From positions 325,078-389,077 of the forward strand of contig JAJCZJ010000020.1 in assembly GCA_029262455.1 (NCBI GenBank): a stretch of DNA of 64,000 bases. Direction: 5' to 3'. This document shows positions 34,599-49,114 of the stretch, piece after piece (position 1 is the first letter of the stretch; each line of letters begins with the position of its first letter). A model generated the notes under the pieces. That model worked only from the letters and a program-made list of their open reading frames with translations. It did no database searches and was not told the origin of the DNA. Source of the DNA: Deltaproteobacteria bacterium. Its GTDB lineage: Bacteria; Desulfobacterota; Binatia; HRBIN30; CADEER01. A program made the translations under genes and the position numbers.

Positions 34599-34640
34599 TC
34601 GCCGATTTCGTTAAGAACACCCGAAAACGCAGTATTACTC

Positions 34641-36644: not shown

Positions 36645-37630
36645 CAGACCAAGCAACCGCACCGCGCCAGATCGACATCCGCATCTCCACCATCGGCGGG
36701 CACGAGTATCGGTTGAATCTCCGCGAAGACGCCGTCCATTTGCGCGACCTCTTTACTCGATTCGTCAACCGACCGGCGACTGGGGCTGTCCGAGCTCCTG
36801 AATTCATCCAACTGCCCCTCGACGGAGGCAACGCTTCCTGCACGATCGCCGTCGATCAGATTGTGTCGATCGTCACCACGCCACCAGTCGTCATCGAAGT
36901 GCAACAACCCGCCGTCGAGCCAAACGTAATTCCAGATGTGCCGGCAGTGGTCGCGCCACCCCAGATCCGGCGCGCACACTACACGGTGATCGACGACTTT
37001 CTCACCGTCGATGAGCACCGAGACATGCTGGCGTTGGCATTGAGCGAGAAGGACAGCTTCGAACCCGGTACGGTGCAGGGTGAACCGAGTCCACACCGAC
37101 GAAACAGCGTCATCATGAACTTCGCAGACTCGGCGCACGGAACACTGCTGACAAGTCGTCTGCTCGTTTGGTTTCCATTGATCGCAAAGGCGCTGAAGGA
37201 ACCACTGTTTCCGCTCAAGACGGTCGAGTCGCAACTGACCGCCGCCAACGACGGAGACTACTATAAGCCTCACCTCGATACCGACGGGAAGACCCCCGAT
37301 TTCCGGGTCATCGCGTGCGTCTACTATTTCTTCCGCGAGCCAAAAGGGTTCACGGGCGGCGACCTACGCCTCTATGATTCCATCGAAACAGGTGGCGAAA
37401 TCTGTCAGGCGGATTCCTTCCAAGACATTCGGCCGGCAAGCAATCGCTTGGTCGCATTCACCTGCGAGACCTTCCACGAGCTGCTCGCGACTCGCTGCCC
37501 GTCCAAGGATATCGAAGACAGTCGTTTTGCGGTGACCGCGTGGTTTCACCGCAGCGGCGCACCGGACCCCGACGCCAAGTTCGGTTGGGGACATTATCGT
37601 TGCGGCGAAGTTCCGGAGGCACTGCGGTGA
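36641..37630 (+). CDS. Novel ~80-aa N-terminal domain fused to a prolyl-4-hydroxylase-like 2OG-Fe(II) oxygenase
   Basis: C-terminal domain has YYKPHLDTD (HxD), GGDLRLY, NRLVAF..ETFHEL (second His) and RFAVTAWF (2OG-binding Arg), which is the P4H pattern. The N-terminus IDIRISTIGGHEYRLNL...LRDL...QLPLDGGNASCTIAVDQIVSIVTTPP is paralogous to the N-terminus of the 29406 protein. ATGA overlap with the upstream gene. Confidence 0.6.
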   Translation: MTDQATAPRQIDIRISTIGGHEYRLNLREDAVHLRDLFTRFVNRPATGAVRAPEFIQLPLDGGNASCTIAVDQIVSIVTTPPVVIEVQQPAVEPNVIPDVPAVVAPPQIRRAHYTVIDDFLTVDEHRDMLALALSEKDSFEPGTVQGEPSPHRRNSVIMNFADSAHGTLLTSRLLVWFPLIAKALKEPLFPLKTVESQLTAANDGDYYKPHLDTDGKTPDFRVIACVYYFFREPKGFTGGDLRLYDSIETGGEICQADSFQDIRPASNRLVAFTCETFHELLATRCPSKDIEDSRFAVTAWFHRSGAPDPDAKFGWGHYRCGEVPEALR

Positions 37631-37802: not shown

Positions 37803-38930
37803 ATGATCTTCACGGTTTTCGTCGCACCGGTCGAACCAACGCAACAGTGGCGTGCCGATCTCCTCGAATACTCATGGCGACGCATCAAGCAGAGCGGCGA
37901 ACTGATCCGGCTGGCGCCAACCGCCCCCGGACGCGCACCAGGTAGCAGAGGGAGAGTCGGGAGAACCGTCAAAACGTTCGACTGGAACCCCCACCCGTAC
38001 ACCCAGGACGTGTACGCCGGCTATCAGACAACCGCCGGCGTACTCGAGTGGTTGTTCAACGAGCCGGCCGAAGGAACAGTCCTTTTGCTGGATTCGAGCT
38101 GCATCCTACGCCACCCGGTTACAGCAGAGGTCGAACCAGGCCACGTGCGCGGGTCGTCGTGGCCGGAGATCCCACTTGGCACGGACGGCCCATTCGGCCT
38201 GCATGATGATCTGAAGTTTCTCGAATCCTATTGCGTCAACCGCAAGCTCCCCCTCGCTCCCGTGCGGATGCCGATTTTGATCCACACGGCGGACCTGCGA
38301 AAAATCGCGGCGCGCTGGCTCGAGCTTACGGCGTTGATTCGATCCCATGCCGTAGGCGTTCACGGAAAATACCTTCATGCAGATCGCGTCGCCTACACCG
38401 TCGCCGCCGCCGAATACCGCATCCTCCACACCCTTGACGACCTCGGCACTACGACGTCGGATACCGGCAAAGACGTTCCGATCGTCGACTACAGCACACC
38501 GATCAAGTCCAAACAGGGAGAGATCGTCTGGGACCGAAAGGTCTATCGACCATGGGAGGCAGTCTACACCGAAAATGCGCGCGCAGGCGCAGGCAGAGAC
38601 GTACTCGGGATCCTGAACGAGATGGTGACGCGCCGCGAATCGGGAGCCGAGCTTGCGGCAACACGTCCACAGCGGTGCTACGGGGTGCGGGAAGCACGAA
38701 TTCTCGACGACATTCATCTCGAAGTACCTGGGTGTGCCGACTTGATGTCGCTGAATCAATCCGCGGCTGCCATCTGGGAGCTGTGCAACGGCGAGAACAC
38801 ACTCGCCGAGATCGTCAGCGAGCTCGAGAGACAATTCGACGCGTCACGCGAAACCCTCATGACATCCGTCGAATCGACGGCGAGGGATTTGGAAAGCTCA
38901 GGTGCCATCGAGCTGGAGGAGCTGTTCTGA
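37803..38930 (+). CDS. Unassigned N-terminal (possibly glycosyltransferase) domain with C-terminal PqqD-like (RRE) domain
   Basis: C-terminal 83 aa ILDDIHLEVPGCADLMSLNQSAAAIWELCNGENTLAEIVSELERQFDASRETLMTSVESTARDLESSGAIELEE match the PqqD pattern. N-terminal ~290 aa begin MIFTVFVAPVEPTQQWRADLLEYSWRRIKQSG. Confidence 0.5.
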   Translation: MIFTVFVAPVEPTQQWRADLLEYSWRRIKQSGELIRLAPTAPGRAPGSRGRVGRTVKTFDWNPHPYTQDVYAGYQTTAGVLEWLFNEPAEGTVLLLDSSCILRHPVTAEVEPGHVRGSSWPEIPLGTDGPFGLHDDLKFLESYCVNRKLPLAPVRMPILIHTADLRKIAARWLELTALIRSHAVGVHGKYLHADRVAYTVAAAEYRILHTLDDLGTTTSDTGKDVPIVDYSTPIKSKQGEIVWDRKVYRPWEAVYTENARAGAGRDVLGILNEMVTRRESGAELAATRPQRCYGVREARILDDIHLEVPGCADLMSLNQSAAAIWELCNGENTLAEIVSELERQFDASRETLMTSVESTARDLESSGAIELEELF

Positions 38931-40156
38931 TGGCATCCAAAGCAAAACCAAGCGCCAAAAAGTCCGTGCCGACCACAAAAACAAAGCACGCAGCAAAACG
39001 TGCCAAAGCCTCGGCCAAGAAAACAGCCAAAGCGCCGCCCGGAAAAGCCACGACAGCACGGGCGAAGAAGACCACCAAGACTCCGGCCTCCAAGAGCCCC
39101 AAAACCCGGACCCAAAGGACCCGGGCCCAAAAGCCCCGGGCCCGCAAAGCCGCGCTCAAAGTATCGCAAACGGTGTCGCCCAAAGGATCGCAAACGACTT
39201 CGAAGACGGAGCGAACGACCCCATCGCCTCGCGCAAAGTCGCGGCAGGCCACAAAACAACCCCAGATCTTCGTGTCGATCGCCTCCTACCGCGACCAGTT
39301 TCTTCACTTCACCATCGAGTCGGTGCTCAAACAGGCGACGTACCCAGAACGGTTGACCTTCGGCCTCTGCTGGCAAGCCGACGACACCGAGCAACTCGAT
39401 CAATACCTGCACGATCCGCGTTTCCGCATTCGCAAGTACCCGTACTACGCGAGCCTCGGCTACGGTTGGGCAAGAGCCGAGATCCAAAAACTATACGCCG
39501 GCGAAGAGTACCATCTACTGATCGATTCTCACACGTATCTCGCCAAGGGGTGGGACGAGAATCTGATCGCGCAACTCGAGAGCAAGCCGGGCGAGAAGCC
39601 GCTACTGACGACCAGCTCACCCCCTTTCACCTTCGACAATGACGGCAACGTCGTAATCCCGTGGCAAGGGACCGAACACGACGGCGTGCCGCTGATGAAG
39701 TGCGCACGAATCCAACCGGCAGGGTGGGTCGACATCCAGATGTCCAATGAGCGCAAGTCCACCAAACATCAAACCACCGGATTGGTGTGCTGTAACTTTG
39801 TCTTCACGCACGGGGCTTGGATCCGCGAAGTGCCCGAGGATCCGGCGATGATCAACGCCGGCCACGAGTCAGCCCTTTCGGTTCGTACCTTCACCCACGG
39901 ATACGACATCTACCTGCCCGACGAAATTCAAATCTGGCACCTCGACTACAACAACTACCCGAACGGTGAGCGCAACAAGGTATGGGAAGCAAAGTCCGAC
40001 AGTTGGCAGTCTGAGGGCACCGAGATCATGCTGCGGCGGCTGCAAGCGCTGTTCTACAACCGCGGCGACCGCGCCTCGCTCGGCCGCTACGGACTCGGTC
40101 GATCCCGCACCGTAGCCGACTGGGCGGAGATCACCGGACTCGACCTCAGTGACTGA
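38930..40156 (+). CDS. GT60-like (Glyco_transf_GlcNAc / Skp1-Hyp and mucin-Thr GlcNAc-transferase family) enzyme with ~110-aa Lys/Ala/Thr-rich histone-H1-like N-terminal tail
   Basis: ATG overlaps the upstream stop (TGATG). Tail MASKAKPSAKKSVPTTKTKHAAKRAKASAKKTAKAPPGK... Catalytic region starts IFVSIASYRDQFLHFTIESVLKQATYPERLTFGLCWQADD, which I recognise as the N-terminal signature of the GT60 family from memory (needs HMM confirmation). Paralogous to 46893..47900. Confidence 0.45.
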   Translation: MASKAKPSAKKSVPTTKTKHAAKRAKASAKKTAKAPPGKATTARAKKTTKTPASKSPKTRTQRTRAQKPRARKAALKVSQTVSPKGSQTTSKTERTTPSPRAKSRQATKQPQIFVSIASYRDQFLHFTIESVLKQATYPERLTFGLCWQADDTEQLDQYLHDPRFRIRKYPYYASLGYGWARAEIQKLYAGEEYHLLIDSHTYLAKGWDENLIAQLESKPGEKPLLTTSSPPFTFDNDGNVVIPWQGTEHDGVPLMKCARIQPAGWVDIQMSNERKSTKHQTTGLVCCNFVFTHGAWIREVPEDPAMINAGHESALSVRTFTHGYDIYLPDEIQIWHLDYNNYPNGERNKVWEAKSDSWQSEGTEIMLRRLQALFYNRGDRASLGRYGLGRSRTVADWAEITGLDLSD

Positions 40157-41942
40157 CGTCGACTCCGCACTACTGCCAATTCCCCAACCCGAGTGGCGTG
40201 CTTCTTTATCCGGCGACGGCGCGGCAGTTGATGTCCTGATTTTAAGCAAGGACCGCGCCTGCCAACTCGACGGACTGCTGCGCACGATGCGCGCGTTCCT
40301 GACCATCCCACACCGGAAATACGTACTGTACAAGACGTCTAATTTGGCGTTCGAGCGCGGCTACGACATGCTCCGCCGGTGGAATCCCGAGGTCGAGTTC
40401 ATCGACGAGGCGCAAACGTTTCGACAATGCTACCTCGACCTCGTGGCAAGGATCGCCGCCGGGCCTGGTCGCTACTGGATGCCGGTGATGGACGACATGA
40501 TCTTCACTCGCACGTTCACCGCACAGCCACTCATCGACCTCCTCGACACAGACGAGGACGTGCTGGCGATCTCTCTGCGCCTCGGCGAGAACATTACCTA
40601 TTGCTACACCCGAAACGCTCCAACCACACCTCCGGACTTCAGCAACGGACACCGTTGGGAATGGAGAACAGCCAGCCCAGGCTACTGGAACTATCCAATG
40701 TCCGTCGACGCCAACATCTACCGCACGGCGGAAATGGCCGAATACATCCCGACCCTCCAATTCGGCAAGGCTGAAGTCATCGAGGCACGCATGGCCGGGG
40801 TGCCCTTGAACCGCCCCCATATGCTGTGTGAACCGACCCCCAGCGTACTCAATCTCGCGATCAACCGCGTTCAACACACCTTCAAGAATCGGCACGGCAC
40901 AATCACGCCAGAAGCCCTGAACGGCGCTTTCCTCGCGGGTTTCGCGATGGATGTGCGCCCGTTGCTGGGTCGAACCTTCAACGCCTGTCACGTCGAGGTC
41001 GAGCTGTCCTTGGTCCCCGATGCGCGCGAGCGCCCCGGCGCAACGCCCCTCTCTTCGACCGGCTGGAAACCACAGCGAAACGGCGCCGTCGTCGTGACCG
41101 AGAGCCATGCTGTCGTGACGCTCAAGAGGAACGGAACGAAGCTCAAACTCAATCAGAGCGCCGAAGAGATCTGGAAACTGTGCGACGGAACACGAACGCC
41201 CGAGGACATCCAAAACGAGCTCGCGCAACATTTTGACGCAACCCCGCGCCAGCTTCACAGCGGCGTACGAAGCGCCCTGGCGAATTTCATCAATCACGGC
41301 CTTCTCCGTCAGGAACGCCCGGAAGGCGCATACCGCCGCATCGACCTGCGCCAGATTCCCTGCTTCGTGATCAATTGCGAAGCCGATGCTGAGAAGGACA
41401 CGTTGATGAAGCGTCAGCTCGCTGAGCTCGGGATACCGTACGAACGTGTACCCGGGATCGCCGCAAGCCCGGATTGGGTCGGCGTCGCGCTGTCGCACCT
41501 CAAAGTGCTTCGCCTGACCCGCTCGACGACACCCTTCCTGGTGCTCGAGGACGATTGCTTGTTCAACGACCGCTTCCAACCAGTGTGGCAAGTACCGGTC
41601 GAGGCCGACGCCCTGTATCTCGGCGTTTCCGAGTTCGGCCTCGAGACCCCCGGTCACTTCAGCTGGGGCCGCCGGCGCAAGAACCAATGGAGACCCTACG
41701 ACCGGTCCTTCCTCCGCATTTTCAACATGCTCGCACGCCATGCGGTCGTGTACCTTTCCAACGACTACTGCGAGCAAGTCATCCAATCGCAAATCGAAGC
41801 ACTGACGAATCGAAGTTTGCCGTACCCTGGGGACATCGGCTGCGCGATGCTGCAAGCATCGCACGTCGTCCTGACCCCGAACGAACCGATCTGCCGGCAA
41901 ACCGGTCGTGACTCGACCGTGCGTCCGTTGCCGGAGCTCTGA
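40149..41942 (+). CDS. Three-domain enzyme: GT-A (GT2-like) domain - PqqD-like (RRE) domain - GT25 family glycosyltransferase domain
   Basis: GTG start overlapping the upstream stop. N-terminal VDVLILSKDRACQLDGLLRTM and a DDM motif (GT-A). Residues ~312-388 VVTLKRNGTKLKLNQSAEEIWKLCDGTRTPEDIQNELAQHFDATPRQLHSGVRSALANFINHGLL (PqqD-like). C-terminal CFVINCEADAEKDTLMKRQLAELGIPYERVPGI matches the GT25 N-terminal motif (LPS GT25 / collagen Hyl-galactosyltransferase family). Confidence 0.5.
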   Translation: MTDVDSALLPIPQPEWRASLSGDGAAVDVLILSKDRACQLDGLLRTMRAFLTIPHRKYVLYKTSNLAFERGYDMLRRWNPEVEFIDEAQTFRQCYLDLVARIAAGPGRYWMPVMDDMIFTRTFTAQPLIDLLDTDEDVLAISLRLGENITYCYTRNAPTTPPDFSNGHRWEWRTASPGYWNYPMSVDANIYRTAEMAEYIPTLQFGKAEVIEARMAGVPLNRPHMLCEPTPSVLNLAINRVQHTFKNRHGTITPEALNGAFLAGFAMDVRPLLGRTFNACHVEVELSLVPDARERPGATPLSSTGWKPQRNGAVVVTESHAVVTLKRNGTKLKLNQSAEEIWKLCDGTRTPEDIQNELAQHFDATPRQLHSGVRSALANFINHGLLRQERPEGAYRRIDLRQIPCFVINCEADAEKDTLMKRQLAELGIPYERVPGIAASPDWVGVALSHLKVLRLTRSTTPFLVLEDDCLFNDRFQPVWQVPVEADALYLGVSEFGLETPGHFSWGRRRKNQWRPYDRSFLRIFNMLARHAVVYLSNDYCEQVIQSQIEALTNRSLPYPGDIGCAMLQASHVVLTPNEPICRQTGRDSTVRPLPEL

Positions 41943-41977
41943 TCGAACGAGCCGTTCCTCCAAGCCGGATCCATACA

Positions 41978-44900
41978 GTGAAAAAGGGCACAATCCACGA
42001 TCTCTTCTCCCGCACCGCTTGCGTCGTGTCCGACAGGCACCGATTCATCTATTTGACGGCGCAAAACGCCACGTCTTCCCTGAAGGCCGAGCTGTCGAAC
42101 GAGCACTGCGGCGGCGTTGTCCTCGCCCGCGCACAGGTGGCTGATAAACTCTGGAACCAATACTTTACGTTCGCCTTCCTGCGCGACCCGCTGACGCGCT
42201 TTCTCTCCGCCTATCAGGAAGTGTCTCTGCACATGGAGCGTGACAAACTCGAACCGCGCCCTTTCGGCCGGATGCCCGACGGCCTCGATCGCTTTCAGGC
42301 ATTTCTCGCGGACGTCGAGCAGAACGGTCCGTGGAACGAGCACATTGCACTCCAGCTAGCCTTCGTCGAGCGCCGAAGAATCGACTTTTGGGGGCTCGTC
42401 GAAACGCTGCAAGACGACTTCCAACAAATCTACACCCGGCTGGGATTGGGGACCTGTCCCGTTCTGCCAAAACGCCGCTCTCGCAGCGGCCGTGAGGAAA
42501 AGGACGGCATCTCGCGCTTCGCCTTCCATCCGGAGGACCTCGATGCGACGACAATTGAGCGCATCTACGACCTCTACCGTGAGGACGTCTTGCTGATTCG
42601 AGCGGTTCGCCCCGACGCACCTGAAATGCAGCCGCACTCAACCCGTGCCGCACCGCCCCCCGGAATGGTGCAGGTGGCGATCGCCCTGGCCAACGGCGGC
42701 GAATACTCCCTCGAACTTCCGCCCGGCCAACCAGAGCTGGGCGCTCTGCAAGCTGTGGTATCACCACAACAATCCGATGGACGTTTTCTCGGCCCGCAAG
42801 TTCTGCAGGTTCCACTGCGTGGTGGCAATTCCGCGCTGACGTTTTCCACGCAGCACCTCGTTCGTCTCGAGCTACGCCCCCCCGACGCCCGAGAACTGCG
42901 CCGAATCGAGGCGCCGGCCACCGGCACGGGCAACTCCGGAGTGAATCTAATAAACGTCGGGAACAAGCGGCCGCCAACCGAGGACCCATCGAGCAATATC
43001 GACGAGGCGCATCTCGGTGGCTACATTCGTGCGGCCAATACACCGATTCTCCACAGCGCCGCAGGCCCACACGGGGACCGGGGAACCTGGAATCCGCTGC
43101 TGTGGCGTTGGGCAATCGAAGATCTCGACGTGCGATCAGTGATCGATATCGGATGCGGCGAGGGACACGCCGCCGGATTTTTCTCCGACGGCGGGTGTGA
43201 AGTGCTCGCGCTCGATGGCAGCCTTCAAGCGCGCTATTCCAGCGTTGTTCCAGATCGCCACGTCGTACACGACTTCGTCGAGGGACCTTTCGTCCCAGAG
43301 AAAAGCTTCGACATGGCCTGGACCTGCGAGTTCGTCGAACACGTCGAGGCGCGTTTTCTCCACAATTTCCTGGCTACGATCGCATCGAGCCGCAAGTACG
43401 TGATGATGACGTTCGCCAGCCCGACACAAACAGGCTGGCATCACGTCAATTGCCAAGAACAGGGTTACTGGGTCGATCAGTTGGGACGCCTCGGGTTTCG
43501 CCTGGACGACGATCTAACCGAGAGAGGCCGAGCCTTGGCTCACTCTCATTTTCGCGAACGTGGCCTGGTCTTCGTCCGGCACCATCGAAAAGGCGAGTCA
43601 TCGAAGTCCACAGAACCGTCGCTGCGCGCGACTGCCGAGAGTCACTGTCTCGACCCGCTGCCGGTCCAATCCATGCAGGTCGCACAGCGCGAGAGCGATG
43701 CCTTCTACCTGTTTGTCGACATCTTCGTGCATCCGACCGCACCGAGAATCGTGGCGATCTCACCACCCTATGGCGAAGACTGGAATCCTAACGTTGTCGG
43801 CATCGACTACGATGCCGTCGACCTTGTATTCGGTGACATACGCGTCCGCGGCCGCTGCCTGCGGCACCGTCTCGACTCCTGGGAGCCTTGCATGCTTCTC
43901 GAGTTCGAGGACGAAGACCTAACAGAGCGCATTCGGGCCAACGACGAGATCAACGTCACGATCGAGGCCGGCTCGCATTCGTCGTCCTTCGTCCTGACGA
44001 CCCGCCCAGCGCCAGCCTACGATGTCGCAATGAGCCTCGTCGTACGCAACGAAAACCGCTGGATCCGCACGTTTCTCGACTACTACCTCGACTGCGTCAA
44101 AGCCGACCACGTCTTCATCTACGACAACGGAACGTCGGAACAAGACCAGCTGCTTTCCATTCTTCACCCGTACCGAGAGCGCGGGCAAGTGACGTACATC
44201 CCGTGGGATTTTCGCTGGCGCAACCGCATCGACCGCAAGATGATCGGCCAACCGACACAGGAGGCTCACTCCCTTGCAAGATTCGCAAACACCGGGTGGA
44301 TCGGCTTTCTCGACATCGACGAGTTCCTGCGCTTGCCGCACAGCACCCTGCCACAATTTCTCGCTCGCTTCGCGTCCGCGGAGGTCGACGGACTCTCGTT
44401 CGGTATCCGGTGGTTTTCTTACGAGGGCCCGCTTGCACTCGATGAGATTACGAGTGTGCCACTGCAATTCCTCCACTCGCGCCGCAATGAGCTCGGCCGA
44501 AAACGGCAGAAGTTCTTCGTCAAAGGCGGCGGCTCGAAGTTTCTTCGCTTGCATTGGCTCGAAGACGGAGGTCGCGAACTGCCCATCGACGACACCGAGA
44601 TCTACTTTCACCACTACGATCAACGTCCCGGCCGTTTCGAAGAAGGAAAGCAAATCGGAGGAGCGCGCGACGAATACATGCTGCGCTTCGCCGACCAGCT
44701 CTCGCGCCCCGAGCGGCACAGAGCCCCTCTAACCGAGAGAGGATGGATCACCCACATCAACTCTTCGATCGAACGCGCCGAACGCGACACCTCCAAACTC
44801 ACCCCGGAAGTCCTCGCCGTCGACGGCATGTGCGGGCGCTACACCCGTCACTTCTACAACAACCTCTGCAGCTTCGGAGGATGCCGCTACCTCGAGATCG

Positions 44901-45385
44901 GCAGCTATCACGGGGCCAGCACCTGCGCGGCAATCTTCGGCAACGACGTATCCGCCGTGTGCATCGACAATTGGACACAGTTTCACGGCAAGCGAAGCCG
45001 CTTCGAGGATGCCCTACGACGCTTCCGAGGAGATCGCTCGGTCCGAGTCATCGAGCAAAACTGCTTCGAAGTAGACGCCTCAAGCCTCGGCCCATTCGAC
45101 ATCTATCTCTACGATGGCGACCACAGCCAGCAGAACCAGTACCGAGCCTTGCAGCACTTCGTTCAGACGCTGGCCAAGCTCGCCGTAGTCGTCATCGACG
45201 ACTGGAATCGTCGGCATATCCGTCGGGGGACACAGGACGCGATTCGGGACCTCGAACTCGATGTAATCTTCGACCGAGAGATCCTACTGCCAACCGACCA
45301 GACGGCGGATGAAAACCGTGACGCTGGAGCGCGAACTTGGTGGAACGGACTCTACATCATGCTCGTTCGCAGTAGAACGCAGTAG
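41978..45385 (+). CDS. 1135-aa five-domain enzyme: sulfotransferase (Sulfotransfer_2-like) - novel ~80-aa domain - class I SAM methyltransferase - GT-A glycosyltransferase (DIDEFL) - TylF/CmcI-like O-methyltransferase
   Basis: GTG start. Five domains are visible:
- (1) 5'-PSB-like RFIYLTAQNATSSLKAEL and 3'-PB FLRDPLTRFLSAY, carbohydrate sulfotransferase motifs.
- (2) MVQVAIALANGGEYSLELP...LQVPLRGGNSALTFSTQHLVRLELRPP, homologous to the N-termini of the 29406 and 36641 proteins.
- (3) RSVIDIGCGEGHAAGFFSDGGCEVLALD, methyltransferase motif I.
- (4) HVFIYDNGTSEQ...GWIGFLDIDEFL, GT-A DxD.
- (5) FDIYLYDGDHS, Methyltransf_24 (TylF/MycF-like) motif. Confidence 0.55.
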   Translation: MKKGTIHDLFSRTACVVSDRHRFIYLTAQNATSSLKAELSNEHCGGVVLARAQVADKLWNQYFTFAFLRDPLTRFLSAYQEVSLHMERDKLEPRPFGRMPDGLDRFQAFLADVEQNGPWNEHIALQLAFVERRRIDFWGLVETLQDDFQQIYTRLGLGTCPVLPKRRSRSGREEKDGISRFAFHPEDLDATTIERIYDLYREDVLLIRAVRPDAPEMQPHSTRAAPPPGMVQVAIALANGGEYSLELPPGQPELGALQAVVSPQQSDGRFLGPQVLQVPLRGGNSALTFSTQHLVRLELRPPDARELRRIEAPATGTGNSGVNLINVGNKRPPTEDPSSNIDEAHLGGYIRAANTPILHSAAGPHGDRGTWNPLLWRWAIEDLDVRSVIDIGCGEGHAAGFFSDGGCEVLALDGSLQARYSSVVPDRHVVHDFVEGPFVPEKSFDMAWTCEFVEHVEARFLHNFLATIASSRKYVMMTFASPTQTGWHHVNCQEQGYWVDQLGRLGFRLDDDLTERGRALAHSHFRERGLVFVRHHRKGESSKSTEPSLRATAESHCLDPLPVQSMQVAQRESDAFYLFVDIFVHPTAPRIVAISPPYGEDWNPNVVGIDYDAVDLVFGDIRVRGRCLRHRLDSWEPCMLLEFEDEDLTERIRANDEINVTIEAGSHSSSFVLTTRPAPAYDVAMSLVVRNENRWIRTFLDYYLDCVKADHVFIYDNGTSEQDQLLSILHPYRERGQVTYIPWDFRWRNRIDRKMIGQPTQEAHSLARFANTGWIGFLDIDEFLRLPHSTLPQFLARFASAEVDGLSFGIRWFSYEGPLALDEITSVPLQFLHSRRNELGRKRQKFFVKGGGSKFLRLHWLEDGGRELPIDDTEIYFHHYDQRPGRFEEGKQIGGARDEYMLRFADQLSRPERHRAPLTERGWITHINSSIERAERDTSKLTPEVLAVDGMCGRYTRHFYNNLCSFGGCRYLEIGSYHGASTCAAIFGNDVSAVCIDNWTQFHGKRSRFEDALRRFRGDRSVRVIEQNCFEVDASSLGPFDIYLYDGDHSQQNQYRALQHFVQTLAKLAVVVIDDWNRRHIRRGTQDAIRDLELDVIFDREILLPTDQTADENRDAGARTWWNGLYIMLVRSRTQ

Positions 45386-45412: not shown

Positions 45413-45892
45413 TTACTCCTCGCCCTTGGTTTCTTTTCCCACGGGAGCCGGTCGGCCCTCGTCGTCATCCGAAGCAATGAGCTTTTTAGCACCGAAGCCA
45501 AAGAGCGCCGCTGCGGCCACAGCCGCGGCGCCGCCTGAAACCACAGGCGCATCGACTGCTGCCTGAAAGGCGGTCGGAACCGCCGTACTGGGAAGGCCCG
45601 GATCGAGGACCGTCGGGACCTGCGTCGGTGCGGCAGTAGGATTGAGGCAAAGTGACGGCGAATTGGTACATTGCGTCGTCCCAGCTTCGACAGGCGCGAC
45701 GAATCCAAGATCAGACGAGACCGGTACCGATAAGATCACCGGCGTTACCCAGGCAATCTTGAGCGCCGAGCGCCTTGAAATATCGTCGGAAAAAGTCGGC
45801 CGCGCCGCCTTCCCGTCCGTCACCAGCTCGCCCCGCAGCCGCTCGATCTCCTCGAGAAGCTCCTTTTTCGTCTTCGTTCCGTCACCCGCCAT
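45413..45892 (-). CDS. Small exported Pro/Thr/Ser/Ala-rich protein, paralog B (coiled-coil N-region plus SRRSALK Tat-like motif, C-terminal hydrophobic segment)
   Basis: Internal Met of ORF 45413..45997, preceded by gagggtc. MAGDGTKTKKELLEEIERLRGELVTDGK...DISRRSALKIAWVTPVILSVPVSS, then a PT-rich region with two Cys, then AAAVAAAALFGFGAKKLIASDDDEG. Confidence 0.5.
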   Translation of the reverse strand: MAGDGTKTKKELLEEIERLRGELVTDGKAARPTFSDDISRRSALKIAWVTPVILSVPVSSDLGFVAPVEAGTTQCTNSPSLCLNPTAAPTQVPTVLDPGLPSTAVPTAFQAAVDAPVVSGGAAAVAAAALFGFGAKKLIASDDDEGRPAPVGKETKGEE

Positions 45893-46048: not shown

Positions 46049-46744
46049 TCATCCCACCCCGCAGACCTCCCGACCCGTGGCTTCACGATAGTAGGACACA
46101 TCCTCGGCGCAAATGCGCAAAGCCAGTTCTCGCGTCTCCCCATCATAGAAAAGCTCCGGAACCGGCATCCCGTGCCGGCGAAGCCAGCCCGGGGAACGAT
46201 CTGTCGCGCGCTCTCGAATCGTCACGTCCTGCGGCGAAGGATTCTCGTGCAGGACCGGCGCGGAAACCGAAACTCTCTCGTTTAAGCTCGCCAGCCCCCG
46301 CGAGAGATCTTCCACCGCAACGACTTCGTCGAAGTCTATCTGATGCGTGTTTCGGACCTGCGGCACCAAATGGTGCTGGGGTTCGATCCCGCGGGTCTGA
46401 ACATGCTGCAAGGTGTAGAGGAACTTGCGAAAGCTCTTGTCCCGCAGCGAGAGCTTCCGGTCATCGTCGGCAAAGCACCACAACGTTTCATCGCGCACGA
46501 CCCACAAGGTGTAGAACCCGACGAGTCGGCGAAGCGGATCGCGCACAAAGAAGACCTTCCAATAGTCACGACAGCGGTCGATGTCGCCGTGCCAAATCAG
46601 GAAAGCGTCAAGGTCTTCGACCGGTTGCTTCGTCTTCTCCTCAATCGCTGCCTTGCACCACGATCGGATGCTGTTCGAACCACACTTGGGACTATAGACG
46701 GCAAGTACTTCGAGTGGATCCGCGGCTAGGAAGAAGTGGGCCAT
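46049..46744 (-). CDS. Carbohydrate sulfotransferase-like protein (Sulfotransfer_2/3 family); possible N-terminal extension through the heptad repeat to a GTG at 46900
   Basis: From MAHFFLAADPLEVLAVYSPKCGSNSIRSW (5'-PSB PKCGS) and FFVRDPLRRLVGFY (3'-PB). The ORF-track version starts at a GTG at 46898-46900, 5 nt upstream of the preceding gene's stop, which is a coupling-type overlap. That start would add (T-S-H-E-S-P-V)n repeats to the N-terminus. Confidence 0.5.
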   Translation of the reverse strand: MAHFFLAADPLEVLAVYSPKCGSNSIRSWCKAAIEEKTKQPVEDLDAFLIWHGDIDRCRDYWKVFFVRDPLRRLVGFYTLWVVRDETLWCFADDDRKLSLRDKSFRKFLYTLQHVQTRGIEPQHHLVPQVRNTHQIDFDEVVAVEDLSRGLASLNERVSVSAPVLHENPSPQDVTIRERATDRSPGWLRRHGMPVPELFYDGETRELALRICAEDVSYYREATGREVCGVG

Positions 46745-46759: not shown

Positions 46760-46878
46760 GTGATTGGTGACTGGTGATTCGTGACTGGTGACTGGTGATT
46801 CGTGACTGGTGACTGGTGATTCGTGACTGGTGACTGGTGATTCGTGACTGGTGACTGGTGACTGGTGACTGGTGATTG
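46760..46878. repeat. 17 tandem copies of a heptanucleotide (GTGACTG/GTGATTC; 21-nt super-unit x4) between the GT60-like gene and the sulfotransferase
   Basis: Read directly: gtgattg gtgactg gtgattc gtgactg gtgactg gtgattc ... gtgactg gtgattg. On the minus strand this is CAGTCAC/GAATCAC. In the reading frame of ORF 46049..46900 it encodes the heptad TSHESPV five or more times. Confidence 0.8.
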
Positions 46879-46892
46879 GTTGGGCAAAAGTT

Positions 46893-47900
46893 CTACACAC
46901 CGGCGCCGGCCTGGTACTCTTCGAAAGTGACGCAGCTCTCCCAGTCGGACGGCGACCGGATTGTCACTGGGTCGGGGTTCGCGCCACTAAACGCATCCGG
47001 ATGCGCGCGTTTGGCTCGGAAGTCAAAGCCCGAAAAAATCTCGTAGTCCCGCAAGGTCCGCACCCGACCGAAACCGTACGGTCCGGGCAGCGGTGATTCA
47101 TAGCTCGAGAGCAGCTGTTCCAAACGGGCAAACGCCTCGCGGTTGCGGCGCTCGACGACGTCTTCCCCCTGCTCCCAATGGCGCCGCGGCGGCCCGTCGT
47201 TGTGCTGCATGTGCCATGCCACGACTTCCGTTGGAAGAAAGAAGTCGTACCCCCAGGTGTACGAACGAATGGTCACATTCAGCTCTTCGCCCCAATAGTA
47301 TTGTCCGGGATCCTGCGGCACCTCGACATTCCAGATGCCGCGCGAGAACGCGAAGTTGCCGTTGACAAACCGTGTACGCCCCGGCTTCTTGACGTTGGGG
47401 GCTCCAAAGTCGAACCACGGCGCCCAATGGTCCGACGCGCTCCAGCCGCTCACCTTGGTCGTCGGCACACCCATTTCAGTACGACGCTGCGGCACACCAT
47501 CCTCGTCGTACCAGAATAGGGGAGCATTCATGCTGAGAACGGGTTTCTCACTGGGGAGAGCCTCCAGCATCTCGATCAGCCGCGCGTCCCAGTCGGGCTC
47601 GAGCTTCATATGGGAATCGATCTGCAGAGTGTAGGGTTCACCTCGCCACAGAGACTGCGCAATATTACGCGCCCAGGGGCCGCCCTGGCTTGCCGCAATC
47701 GTCGTATCCACAAACCGAAACCGCGGATCTCGGCGAAAATCCTCCAACGGCACCGGCGCTTTTGGGTCACGCTGCCAGCAAATTCCGAAACGCAGCGAAT
47801 CTGGAGCACTTGCCGTTTCGATCGCGTCACGCAAGGTGCGCGGCAACTCGGGGTCCGTGTACGACGCGATCGCGACGAAGATCTGAGGGTGGGAAGCCAC
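46893..47900 (-). CDS. GT60-like (Glyco_transf_GlcNAc family) glycosyltransferase, paralog of 38930..40156 without basic tail
   Basis: GTG start (MASHPQIFVAIASYTDPELPRTLRDAIETASAPDSLRFGICWQRD). Collinear similarity with the 38930 protein (IFV[AS]IASY.D, [IL]CWQ, DSH, W...E, WH). Confidence 0.45.
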   Translation of the reverse strand: MASHPQIFVAIASYTDPELPRTLRDAIETASAPDSLRFGICWQRDPKAPVPLEDFRRDPRFRFVDTTIAASQGGPWARNIAQSLWRGEPYTLQIDSHMKLEPDWDARLIEMLEALPSEKPVLSMNAPLFWYDEDGVPQRRTEMGVPTTKVSGWSASDHWAPWFDFGAPNVKKPGRTRFVNGNFAFSRGIWNVEVPQDPGQYYWGEELNVTIRSYTWGYDFFLPTEVVAWHMQHNDGPPRRHWEQGEDVVERRNREAFARLEQLLSSYESPLPGPYGFGRVRTLRDYEIFSGFDFRAKRAHPDAFSGANPDPVTIRSPSDWESCVTFEEYQAGAGV

Positions 47901-48115: not shown

Positions 48116-49114
48116 TCAGACCTTGTGGGCGAGCCCCTTTTCCCGCGCCGTGTACTGATCGAAGATCCAGGCGTAGGTTTTCTCGATACCGTCGCGCAAT
48201 GAAGTAGACGGAGCCCAACCGAGCTTCTCAATGATCATCGTGTTGTCGCTGCTCCGCCCGTCGACACCCTTCGGAGCATCCAGTTTATAGGTTCGCTCGA
48301 GCCGAATTCCGGCAATCTCTTCGACGACATCGACCAGATCATTGATGGACACTGTCTCACTTGAGCCGAGATTGATCGGGTCCGAGACACTGCTCTCCAT
48401 CAGCCGACGAATTCCCTCGATGCAGTCATCGATGTACGTAAACGAGCGACCCTGGTTTCCATCGCCCCAGATTTCAATGCGATGATCGCCGCGGACTTTT
48501 GCTTCGATCACCTTTCGACAGATCGCCGCGGGTGCCTTCTCGCGACCACCGTCCCAGGTCCCATGAGGCCCATACACATTGTGGAAGCGAGCCACTCGCG
48601 TCCGCATCCCAAAGTCCTCCATGAAATGGCGGCACATACGCTCGGAGAACAGCTTCTCCCACCCGTACCCATCTTCCGGCATCGCCGGGTACACGTCGTC
48701 CTCTTTCAAGGGAGTGACATCATAGCCACGTTGCTTGTCCGCCCTGTATACGCATGCCGACGACGCGTAGAAAAAGCTCTCGGTGCCGCACACATTCGCA
48801 GCTTCCAACAGATGGGTATTGATCAAGACGTTGAGCATGCACAGAGCCTTGTTGCTCTCGATGAAGCCCATGCCGCCCATATCACAGGCCATCTGGTACA
48901 CGACTCCGACCCCCTCGCAGACATCCATGCACGGACTCCGCAACCGCAGATCCAGCTGCCGATTGTCGACGTCGTCGAAGCACTGGTACCACTCTTCGAT
49001 CGGTTTGAGATCGACCGCGCGTAGGTTGGGCTCACCACGCTGGCGCAAGTCGGCAACAATCTGCCCCCCGATAAACCCGCCCGCGCCTGTGACTAGAACA
49101 GTAGAAGCAACCAT
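48116..49114 (-). CDS. gme: GDP-mannose 3,5-epimerase (plant GME-type extended SDR; produces GDP-L-galactose/GDP-L-gulose)
   Basis: 332 aa. Collinear matches to plant GME as I recall it: TGAGGFIG, MACDMGGMGFIESN (AADMGGMGFIQSN), FFYASSACVY, GYGWEKL, FHNVYGPHGTWDGGREKAPAAICRK (FHNIYGPFGTWKGGREKAPAAFCRK), SDNTMIIEKLGWAP (SDNNLIKEKLGWAP). Confidence 0.75.
   Translation of the reverse strand: MVASTVLVTGAGGFIGGQIVADLRQRGEPNLRAVDLKPIEEWYQCFDDVDNRQLDLRLRSPCMDVCEGVGVVYQMACDMGGMGFIESNKALCMLNVLINTHLLEAANVCGTESFFYASSACVYRADKQRGYDVTPLKEDDVYPAMPEDGYGWEKLFSERMCRHFMEDFGMRTRVARFHNVYGPHGTWDGGREKAPAAICRKVIEAKVRGDHRIEIWGDGNQGRSFTYIDDCIEGIRRLMESSVSDPINLGSSETVSINDLVDVVEEIAGIRLERTYKLDAPKGVDGRSSDNTMIIEKLGWAPSTSLRDGIEKTYAWIFDQYTAREKGLAHKV

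What the first reader, a model, noticed from the sequence alone, without database searches (positions are those of the whole stretch)
41978..45385. Single 1135-aa polypeptide combining sulfotransferase, methyltransferase, GT-A glycosyltransferase and TylF-like O-methyltransferase domains
This domain order is highly unusual: 5'-PSB/3'-PB sulfotransferase motifs (RFIYLTAQNATSSLK; FLRDPLTRFLSAY), motif I VIDIGCGEG, a GT-A domain with DIDEFL, then a C-terminal FDIYLYDGDH methyltransferase. It implies sequential sugar addition, O-methylation and sulfation on one scaffold, an assembly-line tailoring enzyme.

A second stand-alone sulfotransferase at 46049-46744 strengthens the case that the product is sulfated. 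Sulfated and methylated glycans on bacterial proteins are rare.
Basis: partly seen in the sequence, partly recalled or inferred. Interest (0 to 1): 0.7.

Follow-up and report, generated by a model that had tools for sequence, protein, structure and literature searches.

The report
Leader-guided bacterial protein glycan-tailoring enzyme
The 1135-residue protein is a real five-module enzyme (sulfotransferase-like, small docking module, methyltransferase, GT92 glycosyltransferase, O-methyltransferase) in a conserved, undescribed bacterial gene cluster that appears to use RiPP-style leader-peptide recognition and plant/protist-like hydroxyproline glycosylation enzymes to decorate secreted Pro-Thr-repeat proteins.

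Summary
Window 41978-45385(+) is one 1135-aa ORF with Sulfotransfer_2, Methyltransf_23, GT92 and Methyltransf_24 domains, all above Pfam's thresholds. Full-length orthologues (54-60% identity) in independent assemblies exclude a frameshift fusion.

Two corrections:
- The fused sulfotransferase has Gln29 where 10 of 11 aligned relatives have the 5'-PSB lysine. This copy may be impaired. The stand-alone sulfotransferase keeps the lysine.
- A fifth ~75-aa module (aa ~228-302) is shared with the N-terminus of the neighbouring prolyl-4-hydroxylase-like protein.

Context matters most. The gene ends a 13-kb operon, syntenic across several phyla, that encodes:
- three PqqD/RRE-domain proteins, one fused to a hydroxyproline-O-arabinosyltransferase-like GT-A domain;
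- a prolyl-4-hydroxylase-like oxygenase;
- a Skp1-Gnt1-like GT (PF11397), with a second in the facing operon;
- an O-fucosyltransferase-like protein;
- precursor-like genes with a conserved helical leader, a Tat-like RR signal and "xPT" repeats.

Relatives fuse the neighbouring RRE protein to these tailoring domains. The best reading is a late tailoring enzyme in a leader-guided, cytoplasmic Hyp/Thr O-glycosylation pathway, not a free-standing assembly line. I found no description of this system. There is no biochemical evidence, and PAPS supply is unchecked.

The parts
41978..45385 (+). 1135-aa multi-module tailoring enzyme (ST-X-MT23-GT92-MT24). Last gene of the + strand operon.
   Evidence: ORF. 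Pfam. Full-length orthologues P0002 and P0003. No signal peptide or TM segment.
42005..42595 (+). Sulfotransfer_2 domain (aa 10-206). 3'-PB R69/R74/S77 and His122 are present. The 5'-PSB lysine is replaced by Gln29 (CAA), with a 1-residue deletion.
   Evidence: Pfam 54.5 bits. Motif comparison. DNA. Identical in an independent assembly.
42659..42904 (+). Module X: an unannotated ~75-aa module (predicted beta-beta-alpha-beta-beta-beta), shared with the P4H N-terminus and ORF 29297-29920.
   Evidence: BLASTP against P4H, E 4e-9. tblastn finds three copies in the window and copies N-terminal to other enzymes in relatives. Conserved in all 9 rows of A1.
42980..43597 (+). Methyltransf_23 class I SAM methyltransferase module (aa ~335-540). 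DxGCGEGH, CEFVEH and GWHHVNC are invariant.
   Evidence: Pfam. Motifs. Found in all 62 related loci because it was the search anchor.
43658..44677 (+). GT92 module: a beta-rich N-terminal extension (aa ~561-687) plus the GT-A catalytic domain (Pfam aa 688-880). D779-x-D781-E782 and H878/H879 are invariant.
   Evidence: Pfam PF01697 40.7 bits and PF13704 36.6 bits. Motifs. The GT92-MT24 pair recurs in many representatives.
44735..45385 (+). Methyltransf_24 cation-dependent O-methyltransferase-fold domain (aa ~920-1135).
   Evidence: Pfam 45.4 bits. It is the only confidently modelled part (pLDDT 85-93). Foldseek top hits are Rv0187, PaMTH1, SafC and CCoAOMT-like enzymes, with MycF at rank 41.
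40149..41942 (+). RRE597: N-terminal domain + PqqD/RRE (aa 330-386) + GT25-like C-terminal domain. Fused to the tailoring domains in relatives.
   Evidence: Pfam PqqD 43.7 bits. P0009 aa 7-519 is 40% identical, E 1e-119. P0010 is 51-53% identical.
38930..40156 (+). Gnt1a: PF11397 (Skp1 Hyp-GlcNAc-transferase-like) GT with a Lys-rich N-terminal extension.
   Evidence: Pfam 151.6 bits. Gene call in the independent assembly L063. 70-80% identical across phyla.
37803..38930 (+). HPAT-like GT-A domain fused to a C-terminal RRE (375 aa).
36641..37630 (+). Module X + prolyl-4-hydroxylase-like 2OG-Fe(II) oxygenase.
   Evidence: PF13640 57 bits. The only PDB hit is 6T8M, the DdPhyA Skp1 prolyl hydroxylase, E 4e-5. 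HLD motif.
34641..36644 (+). O-fucosyltransferase-like protein with an HprK-related-kinase-like C-terminal segment.
   Evidence: PF10250 25.5 bits, below the 31.5-bit cut-off. TIGR04352 27.7 bits, far below the 200-bit cut-off. Syntenic in 19 loci.
33981..34598 (+). Conserved 205-aa protein of unknown function.
   Evidence: No family hit. Present in 21 related loci.
32612..33976 (+). RRE454: N-terminal PqqD/RRE + ~340-aa unknown domain.
   Evidence: PqqD 52.2 bits. Present in 14 loci.
31963..32469 (+). Precursor A (168 aa): helical leader, SRRTALK Tat-like signal, 99-aa core with 20 PT dipeptides. First gene of the operon.
   Evidence: Regex and leader HMM, 100.1 bits. Sequence. PT statistics.
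45413..45892 (-). Precursor B (159 aa): same leader and RR signal, shorter PT core, C-terminal VDAP-TM-KK anchor and acidic tail. Convergent with the 1135-aa gene.
   Evidence: Leader HMM 90.4 bits. Orthologues at the same position in L001 and L004.
46049..46744 (-). Stand-alone Sulfotransfer_2 enzyme with an intact SPKCGSNS 5'-PSB.
   Evidence: Pfam 33.9 bits. Alignment A4. Syntenic in L001, L002 and L004.
46893..47900 (-). Gnt1b: second PF11397 GT.
   Evidence: Pfam 150.4 bits. Present in 24 loci.
48116..49114 (-). NAD-dependent sugar-nucleotide epimerase/dehydratase.
   Evidence: PF01370 128 bits and PF16363 82 bits. Present in 18 loci.

Best explanation
The 1135-aa protein is a cytoplasmic, multi-module late tailoring enzyme of a leader-peptide-guided protein O-glycosylation pathway.

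Proposed pathway (steps 1-5 are inferred from domain families and context; none is shown biochemically):
1. The substrates are the co-encoded precursor proteins, preA and preB. Each has a conserved N-terminal helix, a Tat-like RR signal and a core of xPT repeats.
2. The three PqqD/RRE-domain proteins bind the leader. They hold the unfolded core near the enzymes.
3. The P4H-like oxygenase hydroxylates prolines of the PT units.
4. The HPAT-like and Gnt1-like GTs start Hyp-O-glycans. The O-FucT-like protein starts Thr-O-glycans.
5. The 1135-aa enzyme then extends and caps the glycans.

Proposed roles of its modules (inferred):
- The GT92 module adds a hexose. By family precedent this would be a beta-linked galactose.
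- The MT23 and MT24 modules O-methylate sugars.
- Module X docks the enzyme to the same complex or substrate as the P4H, which carries the same module.
- The neighbouring RRE597 protein recruits the enzyme. The two proteins are a single polypeptide in some relatives.

In this genome the fused sulfotransferase domain has lost the conserved 5'-PSB lysine (K to Q). It is probably catalytically weakened or serves only in binding. The adjacent stand-alone sulfotransferase is then the likelier source of any sulfation.

The modified protein is then exported, probably by the Tat pathway, and anchored or released at the cell surface.
For: Shown by computation:
- Four Pfam domains lie above threshold in one ORF. 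Catalytic motifs of MT23, GT92 and MT24 are conserved in 9 homologues.
- Orthologous fusions occur in independent assemblies.
- The operon runs 31963-45385 with gaps of 173 nt or less. Synteny holds in L001 and L002.
- Core genes are present in related loci from Binatia, Gammaproteobacteria, Acidobacteriota, Nitrospirales, Myxococcota and Acidimicrobiales: RRE454 in 14, P4H in 16, O-FucT-like in 19, unk205 in 21, HPAT-RRE in 22, Gnt1a in 23 and Gnt1b in 24.
- All 7 GT92-bearing loci and all 5 ST-bearing loci carry other cluster genes.
- Rosetta-stone fusions: P0009 is RRE597 + FUT8-like + MT23 + GT92 + MT24. P0010 is RRE597 N- and C-terminal domains (its PqqD segment is missing) + ST + MT23.
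- The HPAT link: 26 of 73 family members hit PF23452.
- The P4H link: PF13640 at 57 bits, and the only PDB hit is DdPhyA.
- PF11397 is hit twice at ~150 bits.
- The leader HMM finds precursors in 12 related loci plus two in the window, scoring 30-104 bits.
- 70% of core prolines are in PT dipeptides, about four times the shuffle expectation, and the cores contain no Tyr.
- No cluster enzyme has a signal peptide or TM segment.
- Module X is shared with the P4H.
- The K to Q change is seen only in this copy, 1 of 11.
Against: - There is no biochemical or mass-spectrometric evidence for any step.
- The window's own HPAT-like protein scores only 12 bits on PF23452, below the cut-off.
- The O-FucT and GT25 assignments are below Pfam cut-offs.
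- The precursor-enzyme link rests on co-occurrence only. RRE-leader binding is untested.
- No leader protease or dedicated exporter was identified.
- The Tat assignment is motif-based only.
- The full-length model of the 1135-aa protein is poor (pLDDT 55). The ST and GT92 folds and the domain arrangement are therefore not structurally verified.
- The MT23 module also occurs in many loci without the cluster (38 of 62), so it is not specific to this pathway.
- The effect of Q29 on activity is inferred from other sulfotransferases.
Confidence: 0.6

Rival explanations
1. The enzyme belongs to a polysaccharide pathway (O-antigen, capsule or EPS). It would be a multi-module polymerase or chain terminator, like the GT/methyltransferase proteins of ABC-transporter-dependent O-antigen assembly. 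It would add, methylate and sulfate the non-reducing end of a lipid-linked glycan.
For: Multi-domain GT+MT proteins with terminal methylation are well known in Klebsiella and E. coli O-antigen synthesis (PMC11231755, found). The window also contains three YfhO paralogues and a GT11 fucosyltransferase upstream. GT92-MT24 and MT23 modules occur in many loci without RRE genes.
Against: The conserved cluster in the window, L001 and L002 holds no Wzm/Wzt, Wzx/Wzy, polyprenyl-phosphate initiating transferase or polysaccharide export gene. YfhO and GT11 are not conserved with the cluster (0 loci for GT11). The enzyme is directly fused to an RRE-containing protein in P0009. All GT92- and ST-bearing relatives sit beside cluster genes.
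Confidence: 0.12
2. The cluster makes a small secreted RiPP natural product, a glycopeptide with signalling or antimicrobial activity. After leader removal the core is released. The 1135-aa enzyme tailors that metabolite rather than a structural cell-surface glycoprotein.
For: Three RRE domains and leader/core precursors adjacent to the enzymes are RiPP hallmarks. Some precursors are short and lack an anchor, for example L002 at 108 aa. Glycosylated RiPPs are known, including glycocins and cacaoidin (one search hits).
Against: Cores are long and repetitive, 40-189 aa, and vary in repeat number. Many end in a TM+KK anchor or a conserved C-terminal motif. There is a Tat/Sec-like signal with an AxA-like site instead of a double-glycine or protease/ABC exporter system, and no peptidase or ABC transporter lies in the cluster. 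These features fit mucin- or extensin-like surface proteins better.
Confidence: 0.15
3. The four-domain ORF is an assembly or frameshift artefact that joins separate genes.
For: None was found.
Against: Two orthologue clusters have identical domain order and 100% coverage at 54-60% identity. One of them is seen in JGI, ENA and Logan assemblies. GC3 is uniform at 0.72. An independent Logan assembly of the same organism is identical at the 5' junction.
Confidence: 0.01

Closest known systems
RiPP biosynthesis with PqqD-like RiPP recognition elements (lasso peptide B1 proteins TfuB1/TbiB1, PqqD)
   Different: The RREs are fused to, or accompany, glycosyltransferases rather than cyclases, rSAM or YcaO enzymes. 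The 2025 RRE survey only notes RRE-GT (PF00535) fusions as not previously known (PMC12710340). Cores are long PT-repeat regions of 40-189 aa. The leader is followed by a Tat-like signal. No leader peptidase was found.
Eukaryotic hydroxyproline O-glycosylation: plant extensin/HRGP pathway (P4H, HPAT/GT95) and protist Skp1 pathway (PhyA, Gnt1)
   Same: The enzyme families co-occur here as they do in those pathways. They are a P4H-like oxygenase whose best PDB match is DdPhyA, an HPAT-family GT, two PF11397 Gnt1-family GTs, and Pro-rich acceptors.
   Different: The host is bacterial and the pathway cytoplasmic. Targeting is by a leader and RRE instead of Golgi localisation or a folded Skp1. The acceptor motif is xPT rather than Ser-Hyp4 or a single Pro. 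HPATs are described as plant-specific (PMC4738400). Hyp formation and the sugars transferred are unverified.
Multi-module GT/methyltransferase enzymes of ABC-transporter-dependent O-antigen assembly (WbdD-type terminators, Klebsiella O4/O7 enzymes; PMC11231755)
   Same: Several glycan-building and glycan-capping catalytic modules lie in one polypeptide. Relatives shuffle these modules.
   Different: There is no polysaccharide export or initiation machinery in the cluster. The enzyme is genetically, and in relatives physically, coupled to a peptide-binding RRE protein. A sulfotransferase module is included.
GT92 family (C. elegans GALT-1, plant GALS1 beta-1,4-galactan synthases) and Sulfotransfer_2 carbohydrate sulfotransferases (HS2ST, CHST family)
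   Same: Pfam membership is above threshold. The GT92 DxD motif and the ST 3'-PB and His motifs are conserved. There are weak profile hits to heparan-sulfate 2-O/3-O/6-O sulfotransferases.
   Different: The proteins are bacterial and soluble, and the domains are fused to each other and to two methyltransferases. The ST domain of this copy lacks the 5'-PSB lysine.
   Same: Soluble cytoplasmic GTs would modify an unfolded protein before it is exported.
   Different: Those systems use one GT and no RRE. None involves proline hydroxylation, methylation or sulfation, and none uses a Tat-like signal.

Membership tests
Sulfotransfer_2 (PF03567) carbohydrate sulfotransferases | Profile match above the gathering score | tested here: met
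   54.5 bits against a cut-off of 22, aa 10-206.
Sulfotransfer_2 (PF03567) carbohydrate sulfotransferases | 5'-PSB loop with the conserved lysine (PKxxxTS-type). Its catalytic role is from my own knowledge of sulfotransferases. | tested here: not met
   The window copy reads T-A-Q29-N-A-T-S-S. Ten of 11 aligned relatives, including the stand-alone ST, have Lys. The codon is CAA, identical in an independent assembly.
Sulfotransfer_2 (PF03567) carbohydrate sulfotransferases | 3'-PB motif (RDPxxRxxS) and catalytic His | tested here: met
   R69, D70, P71, R74, S77 and H122. R, D, P, R and H are invariant in A4. The motif aligns to the 3'-PB of HS 3-O-ST at E 0.05.
Sulfotransfer_2 (PF03567) carbohydrate sulfotransferases | PAPS-dependent sulfate transfer; PAPS supply in the host | not testable with these tools
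   The 64-kb window has no APS kinase or ATP sulfurylase. The rest of the genome is not available.
GT92 (PF01697) | Profile match above the gathering score, and a GT-A DxD motif | tested here: met
   40.7 bits against a cut-off of 23. D779-I-D781-E782 is invariant in 9 of 9 homologues.
GT92 (PF01697) | Inverting beta-1,4-galactosyltransferase activity with UDP-Gal | not testable with these tools
   This rests only on precedent from characterised family members (my own knowledge). The model of this region is low-confidence.
Class I SAM methyltransferases (Methyltransf_23) | Profile match and motif I GxGxG | tested here: met
   36.8 bits against a cut-off of 27. D390-I-G-C-G-E-G-H is invariant. 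The best PDB profile hits are class I methyltransferases.
TylF/MycF sugar O-methyltransferase family | Match to the TylF sequence family | tested here: not met
   No TylF family appears in the Pfam hit list at E<=0.1. The domain is Methyltransf_24. Only the fold is similar: MycF 4xvz is at Foldseek rank 41, behind Rv0187, PaMTH1 and SafC.
Cation-dependent O-methyltransferase fold (Methyltransf_24 / CCoAOMT-like) | Profile match, fold match and metal-binding acidic residues | tested here: inconclusive
   The profile (45.4 bits) and the fold (E 2e-7) are met. The third residue of Y-D-G-x-H varies (D, N, A, H) among orthologues, so metal dependence is unclear.
RRE-dependent RiPP-type pathways | PqqD-like RRE domain in pathway proteins | tested here: met
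RRE-dependent RiPP-type pathways | Adjacent precursor gene with a conserved leader and a variable core | tested here: met
   Two are in the window, and members occur in 12 related loci. Leader HMM scores are 30-104 bits, and cores vary in repeat type and number.
RRE-dependent RiPP-type pathways | Physical leader-RRE binding and leader removal | not testable with these tools
No peptidase gene is present in the cluster.
Hydroxyproline O-glycosylation machinery (P4H + HPAT/GT95 + Gnt1/PF11397) | Prolyl 4-hydroxylase-type 2OG oxygenase | tested here: met
   PF13640 57 bits. HxD motif H211/D213. The only PDB hit is DdPhyA 6T8M, E 4e-5. Substrate specificity is untested.
Hydroxyproline O-glycosylation machinery (P4H + HPAT/GT95 + Gnt1/PF11397) | HPAT family (PF23452) membership of the 375-aa GT | tested here: inconclusive
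   The window copy scores 12 bits against a cut-off of 23.9. Homologues at 48% identity score 27-29 bits, and 26 of 73 family members hit, best E 4e-11. The GT-A fold is confirmed. The AFDB comparison with plant HPATs could not be run.
Hydroxyproline O-glycosylation machinery (P4H + HPAT/GT95 + Gnt1/PF11397) | Gnt1-type (PF11397) GT | tested here: met
   150.4 and 151.6 bits against a cut-off of 21.
Hydroxyproline O-glycosylation machinery (P4H + HPAT/GT95 + Gnt1/PF11397) | Hyp and Hyp-linked sugars on the acceptor | not testable with these tools
   This requires mass spectrometry.
Tat-exported proteins | [ST]-R-R-x-F-L-K motif, h-region and AxA site (consensus from my own knowledge) | tested here: inconclusive
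   All 10 aligned leaders have [ST]RRx[AV]L[KSTAE], a short Pro-containing hydrophobic stretch and mostly an AQ/AxA-like site. No Tat predictor was available. The ~40-residue N-terminal extension is atypical.
ABC-transporter-dependent O-antigen multi-module enzymes | Co-located Wzm/Wzt transporter and lipid-carrier initiating transferase | tested here: not met
   None is present in the conserved cluster of the window, L001 or L002.

The most novel reading that the evidence does not exclude
The cluster defines an undescribed, phylogenetically widespread bacterial pathway. RiPP-type leader recognition (RRE domains) would direct proline hydroxylation and multi-step Hyp/Thr O-glycosylation of PT-repeat proteins. 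Methyl and sulfate caps would be added in the cytoplasm before Tat-type export. The product would be a bacterial counterpart of plant extensins or mucins. Its enzymes (HPAT-like, PhyA-like, Gnt1-like) would be prokaryotic relatives of families thought to be plant- or protist-specific. The 1135-aa protein would be its glycan extension and capping module.
Probability: 0.4. Interest if true: 0.9.

Novelty: new variant of a known kind. Interest (0 to 1): 0.75.

Why it matters
If the model is right, three things follow:
1. RRE-guided chemistry would extend from small peptide natural products to large, repetitive glycoproteins.
2. Bacteria would have a hydroxyproline O-glycosylation system. It would be built from relatives of plant HPAT and protist PhyA/Gnt1 enzymes, which bears on where those eukaryotic pathways came from.
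3. It would be a natural, soluble, cytoplasmic toolbox of leader-addressable GTs, methyltransferases and sulfotransferases for making defined mucin-like glycoproteins.

Related clusters occur in cultured strains (Luminiphilus syltensis NOR5-1B and Elongatibacter sediminis CH-27), so the idea can be tested directly.

The K to Q change in the fused sulfotransferase is a natural experiment on whether that module is catalytic or has become a binding module.

Tried and rejected
- Frameshift or assembly fusion: rejected by the orthologues and by the independent assembly.
- Anti-phage defence system: PADLOC gave only a trivial methyltransferase-region hit at 17 bits.
- Tyrosine sulfation, as for RaxST or TPST: rejected. 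The domain is Sulfotransfer_2 and none of 13 precursor cores contains Tyr.
- phmmer of the ST domain against PDB found nothing. A profile of 11 ST domains gave only weak 3'-PB-centred hits. The P-loop assignment therefore rests on the family alignment, the Pfam coordinates and the canonical motif as I know it.
- The full-length AF2 model was too poor to use, except for the C-terminal domain (pLDDT 55).
- The AFDB50 fold search for the HPAT-like model could not be run because the library was absent.
- NCBIfam found no family for the precursors.
- The word-index homology search with the 70-aa leader returned no candidates.
- PDB sequence searches of RRE597, the O-FucT-like protein, RRE454 and Gnt1b gave nothing useful.
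- The source organism could not be named. Exact look-ups returned no name or accession. The closest relatives are Candidatus Binatia and an unclassified MAG.
- TPR695, MT291, NAD298 and GT11 were considered as cluster members. They were dropped because they do not co-occur in related loci.
- Eight literature searches found no description of this cluster.

Full report
1. THE OBSERVATION

The ORF exists exactly as described: window 41978..45385, + strand, 1135 aa, GTG start. GC3 is 0.72, typical of coding sequence in this 60% GC window.

Pfam finds four domains, all above their gathering scores:
- Sulfotransfer_2, aa 10-206, 54.5 bits.
- Methyltransf_23, aa 382-473, 36.8 bits.
- Glyco_transf_92 / Glyco_tranf_2_4, aa 688-880, 40.7 and 36.6 bits.
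- Methyltransf_24, aa 972-1076, 45.4 bits.

The neighbouring stand-alone Sulfotransfer_2 gene (46049-46744, - strand) is also real (33.9 bits).

It is excluded:
- P0002 (1134 aa, 60% identity) and P0003 (1143 aa, 54%) cover 100% of the query with the same domains in the same order.
- The P0002 cluster is seen in JGI, ENA and Logan assemblies.
- An independent Logan assembly of the same organism (L063) is identical to the window over the upstream junction and the first 65 codons.

2. ANATOMY, WITH TWO CORRECTIONS

(a) The fused sulfotransferase lacks the 5'-PSB lysine.
- I aligned 11 ST domains: five fused, three from stand-alone or N-terminal relatives, and three of the cluster's stand-alone type. 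Ten have Lys in the 5'-PSB loop ([AGP]-K-N-A-[ST]-S-[ST] or S-P-K-C-x-x).
- The window's fused domain alone has Gln29 (T-A-Q-N-A-T-S-S) and is one residue shorter.
- The codon is CAA, one base from AAA, in two assemblies.
- The 3'-PB residues (R69, D70, P71, R74) and His122 are invariant.
- From established knowledge of sulfotransferases, this lysine contacts the bridging oxygen of PAPS and its loss severely reduces activity. I infer, but have not shown, that this copy is impaired.
- One orthologue (P0007) has a degenerate 3'-PB instead. The ST module may be under relaxed constraint generally.

(b) There is a fifth module. Residues ~228-302 form a conserved unit, predicted as beta-beta-alpha-beta-beta-beta.
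- It is homologous to the N-terminus of the neighbouring P4H-like protein (E 4e-9).
- It is also homologous to part of ORF 29297-29920.
- In relatives it sits N-terminal to other enzymes, including a Nucleotid_trans GT in L001.
- I call it module X and interpret it as a shared docking module (inference).

(c) The other catalytic motifs are intact and invariant in nine homologues: MT23 DxGCGEGH / CEFVEH / GWHHVNC, and GT92 D-x-D-E plus HH. MT24 EIGSxxGAS is conserved in the seven homologues that carry that domain. The third residue of its Y-D-G-x-H varies.

(d) Structure.
- The full-length AF2 model is poor (pLDDT 55 from a 9-sequence alignment). I did not use it outside the C-terminal domain.
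- The C-terminal domain is confident. It matches cation-dependent O-methyltransferases: Rv0187, PaMTH1, SafC, and MycF at rank 41.
- "TylF-like" is therefore true at fold level only.

3. CONTEXT: WHAT IS REALLY THERE

The gene is the last of a tightly packed + strand operon, 31963-45385. A convergent - strand operon, 49114-45413, faces it.

The + strand operon, in order:
- precursor A;
- RRE454 (N-terminal PqqD);
- a 205-aa unknown protein;
- an O-FucT-like protein with an HprK-like tail;
- module X + 2OG-Fe(II) prolyl-4-hydroxylase-like oxygenase;
- a 375-aa protein with a C-terminal PqqD;
- a PF11397 GT (the family of the Skp1 Hyp-GlcNAc transferase Gnt1);
- RRE597 (N-terminal domain, PqqD, GT25-like domain);
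- the 1135-aa enzyme.

The - strand operon:
- a sugar-nucleotide epimerase/dehydratase;
- a second PF11397 GT;
- the stand-alone ST;
- precursor B.

Synteny. The same gene order occurs in an unclassified MAG (L001) and a TARA scaffold (L002). A tblastn survey of 62 related loci gave these counts:
- Gnt1b in 24, Gnt1a in 23, the 375-aa protein in 22, the 205-aa protein in 21, the O-FucT-like protein in 19, the epimerase in 18, the P4H in 16 and RRE454 in 14.
- The loci come from Binatia, several gammaproteobacterial families, Acidobacteriota, Nitrospirales, Myxococcota and Acidimicrobiales.
- The accessory modules are rarer: GT92 in 7, MT24 in 6, the fused ST in 5 and the stand-alone ST in 5. 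They are always found with other cluster genes.

The 375-aa protein.
- Twenty-six of 73 family members hit Pfam HPAT (hydroxyproline O-arabinosyltransferase family), best E 4e-11. All 73 hit PqqD.
- The window copy itself scores only 12 bits on HPAT.

The P4H-like protein. Its only PDB sequence hit is 6T8M (E 4e-5). That entry is the Dictyostelium Skp1 prolyl hydroxylase DdPhyA (PMC7864055).

4. THE CANDIDATE SUBSTRATES

A regex, and then a leader HMM, found a precursor-like family.
- Two members are in the window: 31963-32469 (+) and 45413-45892 (-).
- Twelve related loci have one each, all within 10 kb of the enzymes. Scores run from 30 to 104 bits; the 30-bit hit in L024 is weak.

Precursor architecture:
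- a conserved N-terminal helix (consensus about D-K-T-K-E-E-L-L-A-E-I-x-x-L-R-x-Q);
- a variable spacer;
- [ST]-R-R-x-[AV]-L-..-W-x-x-P-V-[IV]-L followed by an AQ/AxA-like site, which resembles a Tat-type signal;
- a core of xPT repeats (FPTSFPT, APTT, SPTV, SPTQEPTR).

Core composition: 167 of 239 core prolines are followed by Thr, about four times the shuffle expectation. None of 13 cores contains Tyr.

The C-termini are of three kinds: VDAP-TM-KK plus an acidic tail; a conserved (I/V)PVE(I/L)xxF(D/E/K)(I/V) ending; or nothing.

No curated family covers these proteins.

None of the cluster enzymes has a signal peptide or TM segment on a simple hydropathy scan. Modification would therefore be cytoplasmic.

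5. HOW THE 1135-AA ENZYME IS TIED TO THIS PATHWAY

Besides operon membership, there are Rosetta-stone fusions:
- P0009 (1837 aa, locus L002) has aa 7-519 homologous to RRE597 (40% identity, E 1e-119, PqqD at aa 259-311). A FUT8-like domain, MT23, GT92 and MT24 follow.
- Elongatibacter P0010 (1381 aa) joins the RRE597 N- and C-terminal domains (51-53% identity) to ST and MT23. Its PqqD segment is missing.
- P0012 joins a GT8 domain to MT23.

The exhaustive search of 1.84 billion representatives gave 304 hits at E<=1e-30. X-MT23-GT92-MT24 and GT92-MT24 are recurring units. The best hits to the ST region alone are stand-alone proteins or an N-terminal domain. The 50% clustering puts P0001-P0003 under the ST-less representative P0005, so that search cannot count ST fusions.

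The enzyme is thus a modular set of tailoring activities recruited to an RRE protein. It is not a stand-alone assembly line.

6. MECHANISM

Best explanation, confidence 0.6. Steps 1-6 are inferred from domain families and context. What is shown computationally is set out in sections 1-5.
1. The RRE proteins bind the precursor leader.
2. The P4H hydroxylates Pro of the PT units.
3. The HPAT-like and Gnt1-like GTs start Hyp-O-glycans. The O-FucT-like protein starts Thr-O-glycans.
4. The 1135-aa enzyme docks through RRE597 and module X. Its GT92 domain adds a hexose, and its MT23 and MT24 domains O-methylate the glycans.
5. Sulfation, if any, comes mainly from the stand-alone ST in this genome.
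6. The product is exported through the Tat-like signal and anchored or released at the surface.

Rival explanations:
- Polysaccharide or O-antigen tailoring (0.12). Such multi-module GT/MT enzymes are known (PMC11231755). But the conserved cluster has no transporter or initiating transferase, and the RRE fusion argues against it.
- A small secreted glycopeptide RiPP (0.15). The long repetitive cores, the anchors and the signal peptide argue against it.
- An artefact (0.01).

7. COMPARISON WITH KNOWN SYSTEMS, AND NOVELTY

Each part belongs to a known family, but the combination is not described in the literature I could search. Eight searches found nothing.
- The 2025 RRE survey only lists RRE-glycosyltransferase (PF00535) fusions as not previously known (PMC12710340).
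- HPATs are called plant-specific (PMC4738400).

I rate the finding a new variant of known kinds: RRE-guided modification combined with Hyp-type O-glycosylation, with a multi-module tailoring enzyme. The novel reading, a widespread bacterial extensin- or mucin-like pathway, stays open at about 0.4 probability.

8. LIMITS

- All function is inferred. There is no biochemistry.
- The O-FucT, GT25 and (for the window copy) HPAT assignments are below Pfam's cut-offs.
- Tat export is motif-based only.
The nearest relatives are Binatia-like MAGs.

Noticed in passing
window 46760-46880: A 21-bp tandem repeat of 5.8 copies (7-bp sub-unit GTGACTG, about 17 copies) fills the gap between the Gnt1b stop (46893) and the stand-alone sulfotransferase ATG (46744). 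It is in frame with an upstream GTG (46900) and would encode HESPVTS x5. Orthologous loci have only 3-25 nt here (L001, L002). It could be a length-variable 5' region or an N-terminal extension of the ST.
   Followed up: partly
window 38930-39265: Gnt1a carries a ~110-aa Lys/Ala/Pro/Thr-rich, histone-H1-like N-terminal extension. Orthologues of 300-307 aa lack it. The gene call of 408 aa is confirmed in the independent assembly L063.
   Followed up: partly
window 30086-31942 (+): A 618-aa Cys-rich protein lies immediately upstream of precursor A. It has a weak Disintegrin hit (32.8 bits, below the cut-off), a PTPTPTP linker and a C-terminus (APTLSPGG + TM + RKN) that looks like an IPTL-CTERM-type sorting signal (from memory). 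It may be another surface protein or another substrate.
   Followed up: no
window 29297-29920 (+): A 207-aa ORF with no Pfam hit contains a third copy of module X (29424-29636, 42% identical to the P4H N-terminus). The cluster may therefore extend upstream to about 27.8 kb.
   Followed up: partly
window 24941-27571 (-); L002, L005, L006, L020, L045: An 876-aa protein with no Pfam hit and one TM-like segment co-occurs with the cluster in 5 related loci at 40-66% identity. It could be an export or anchoring component.
   Followed up: no
window 16733-24916: Three tandem YfhO-family membrane protein genes and a GT11 fucosyltransferase lie upstream. GT11 is not conserved with the cluster in related loci.
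   Followed up: partly
window 34641-36644 (+), aa 500-570: The O-FucT-like protein has a segment resembling HprK-related kinase A (TIGR04352, 27.7 bits, far below the 200-bit cut-off). It may be a nucleotide-binding or kinase module.
   Followed up: no
L010, L013, L014, L023, L026 precursors, compared with window preB, L001 and L004: There are two different conserved precursor C-termini. One is (I/V)PVE(I/L)xxF(D/E/K)(I/V) at the very end, in Gammaproteobacteria and Acidobacteriota. The other is VDAP-LLSG-TM-KK plus an acidic tail, in Binatia-like loci. They may be two sorting or anchoring signals; neither was identified.
   Followed up: no
Gnt1a orthologues across L001-L026: Gnt1a is 70-80% identical across phyla, while its neighbours are 44-67% identical. 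This points to unusually strong constraint or recent horizontal spread.
   Followed up: no
P0007 (orthologue), ST domain: A second kind of motif decay appears in the fused ST module. The 3'-PB reads AFLSDP..RLLRAY, with the Arg and Ser lost, while the 5'-PSB Lys is kept.
   Followed up: partly
window 53227-55906 (-): A multi-haem cytochrome c gene (536 aa) and a cytochrome b/b6 gene (348 aa) lie downstream. They are unrelated to the cluster.
   Followed up: no
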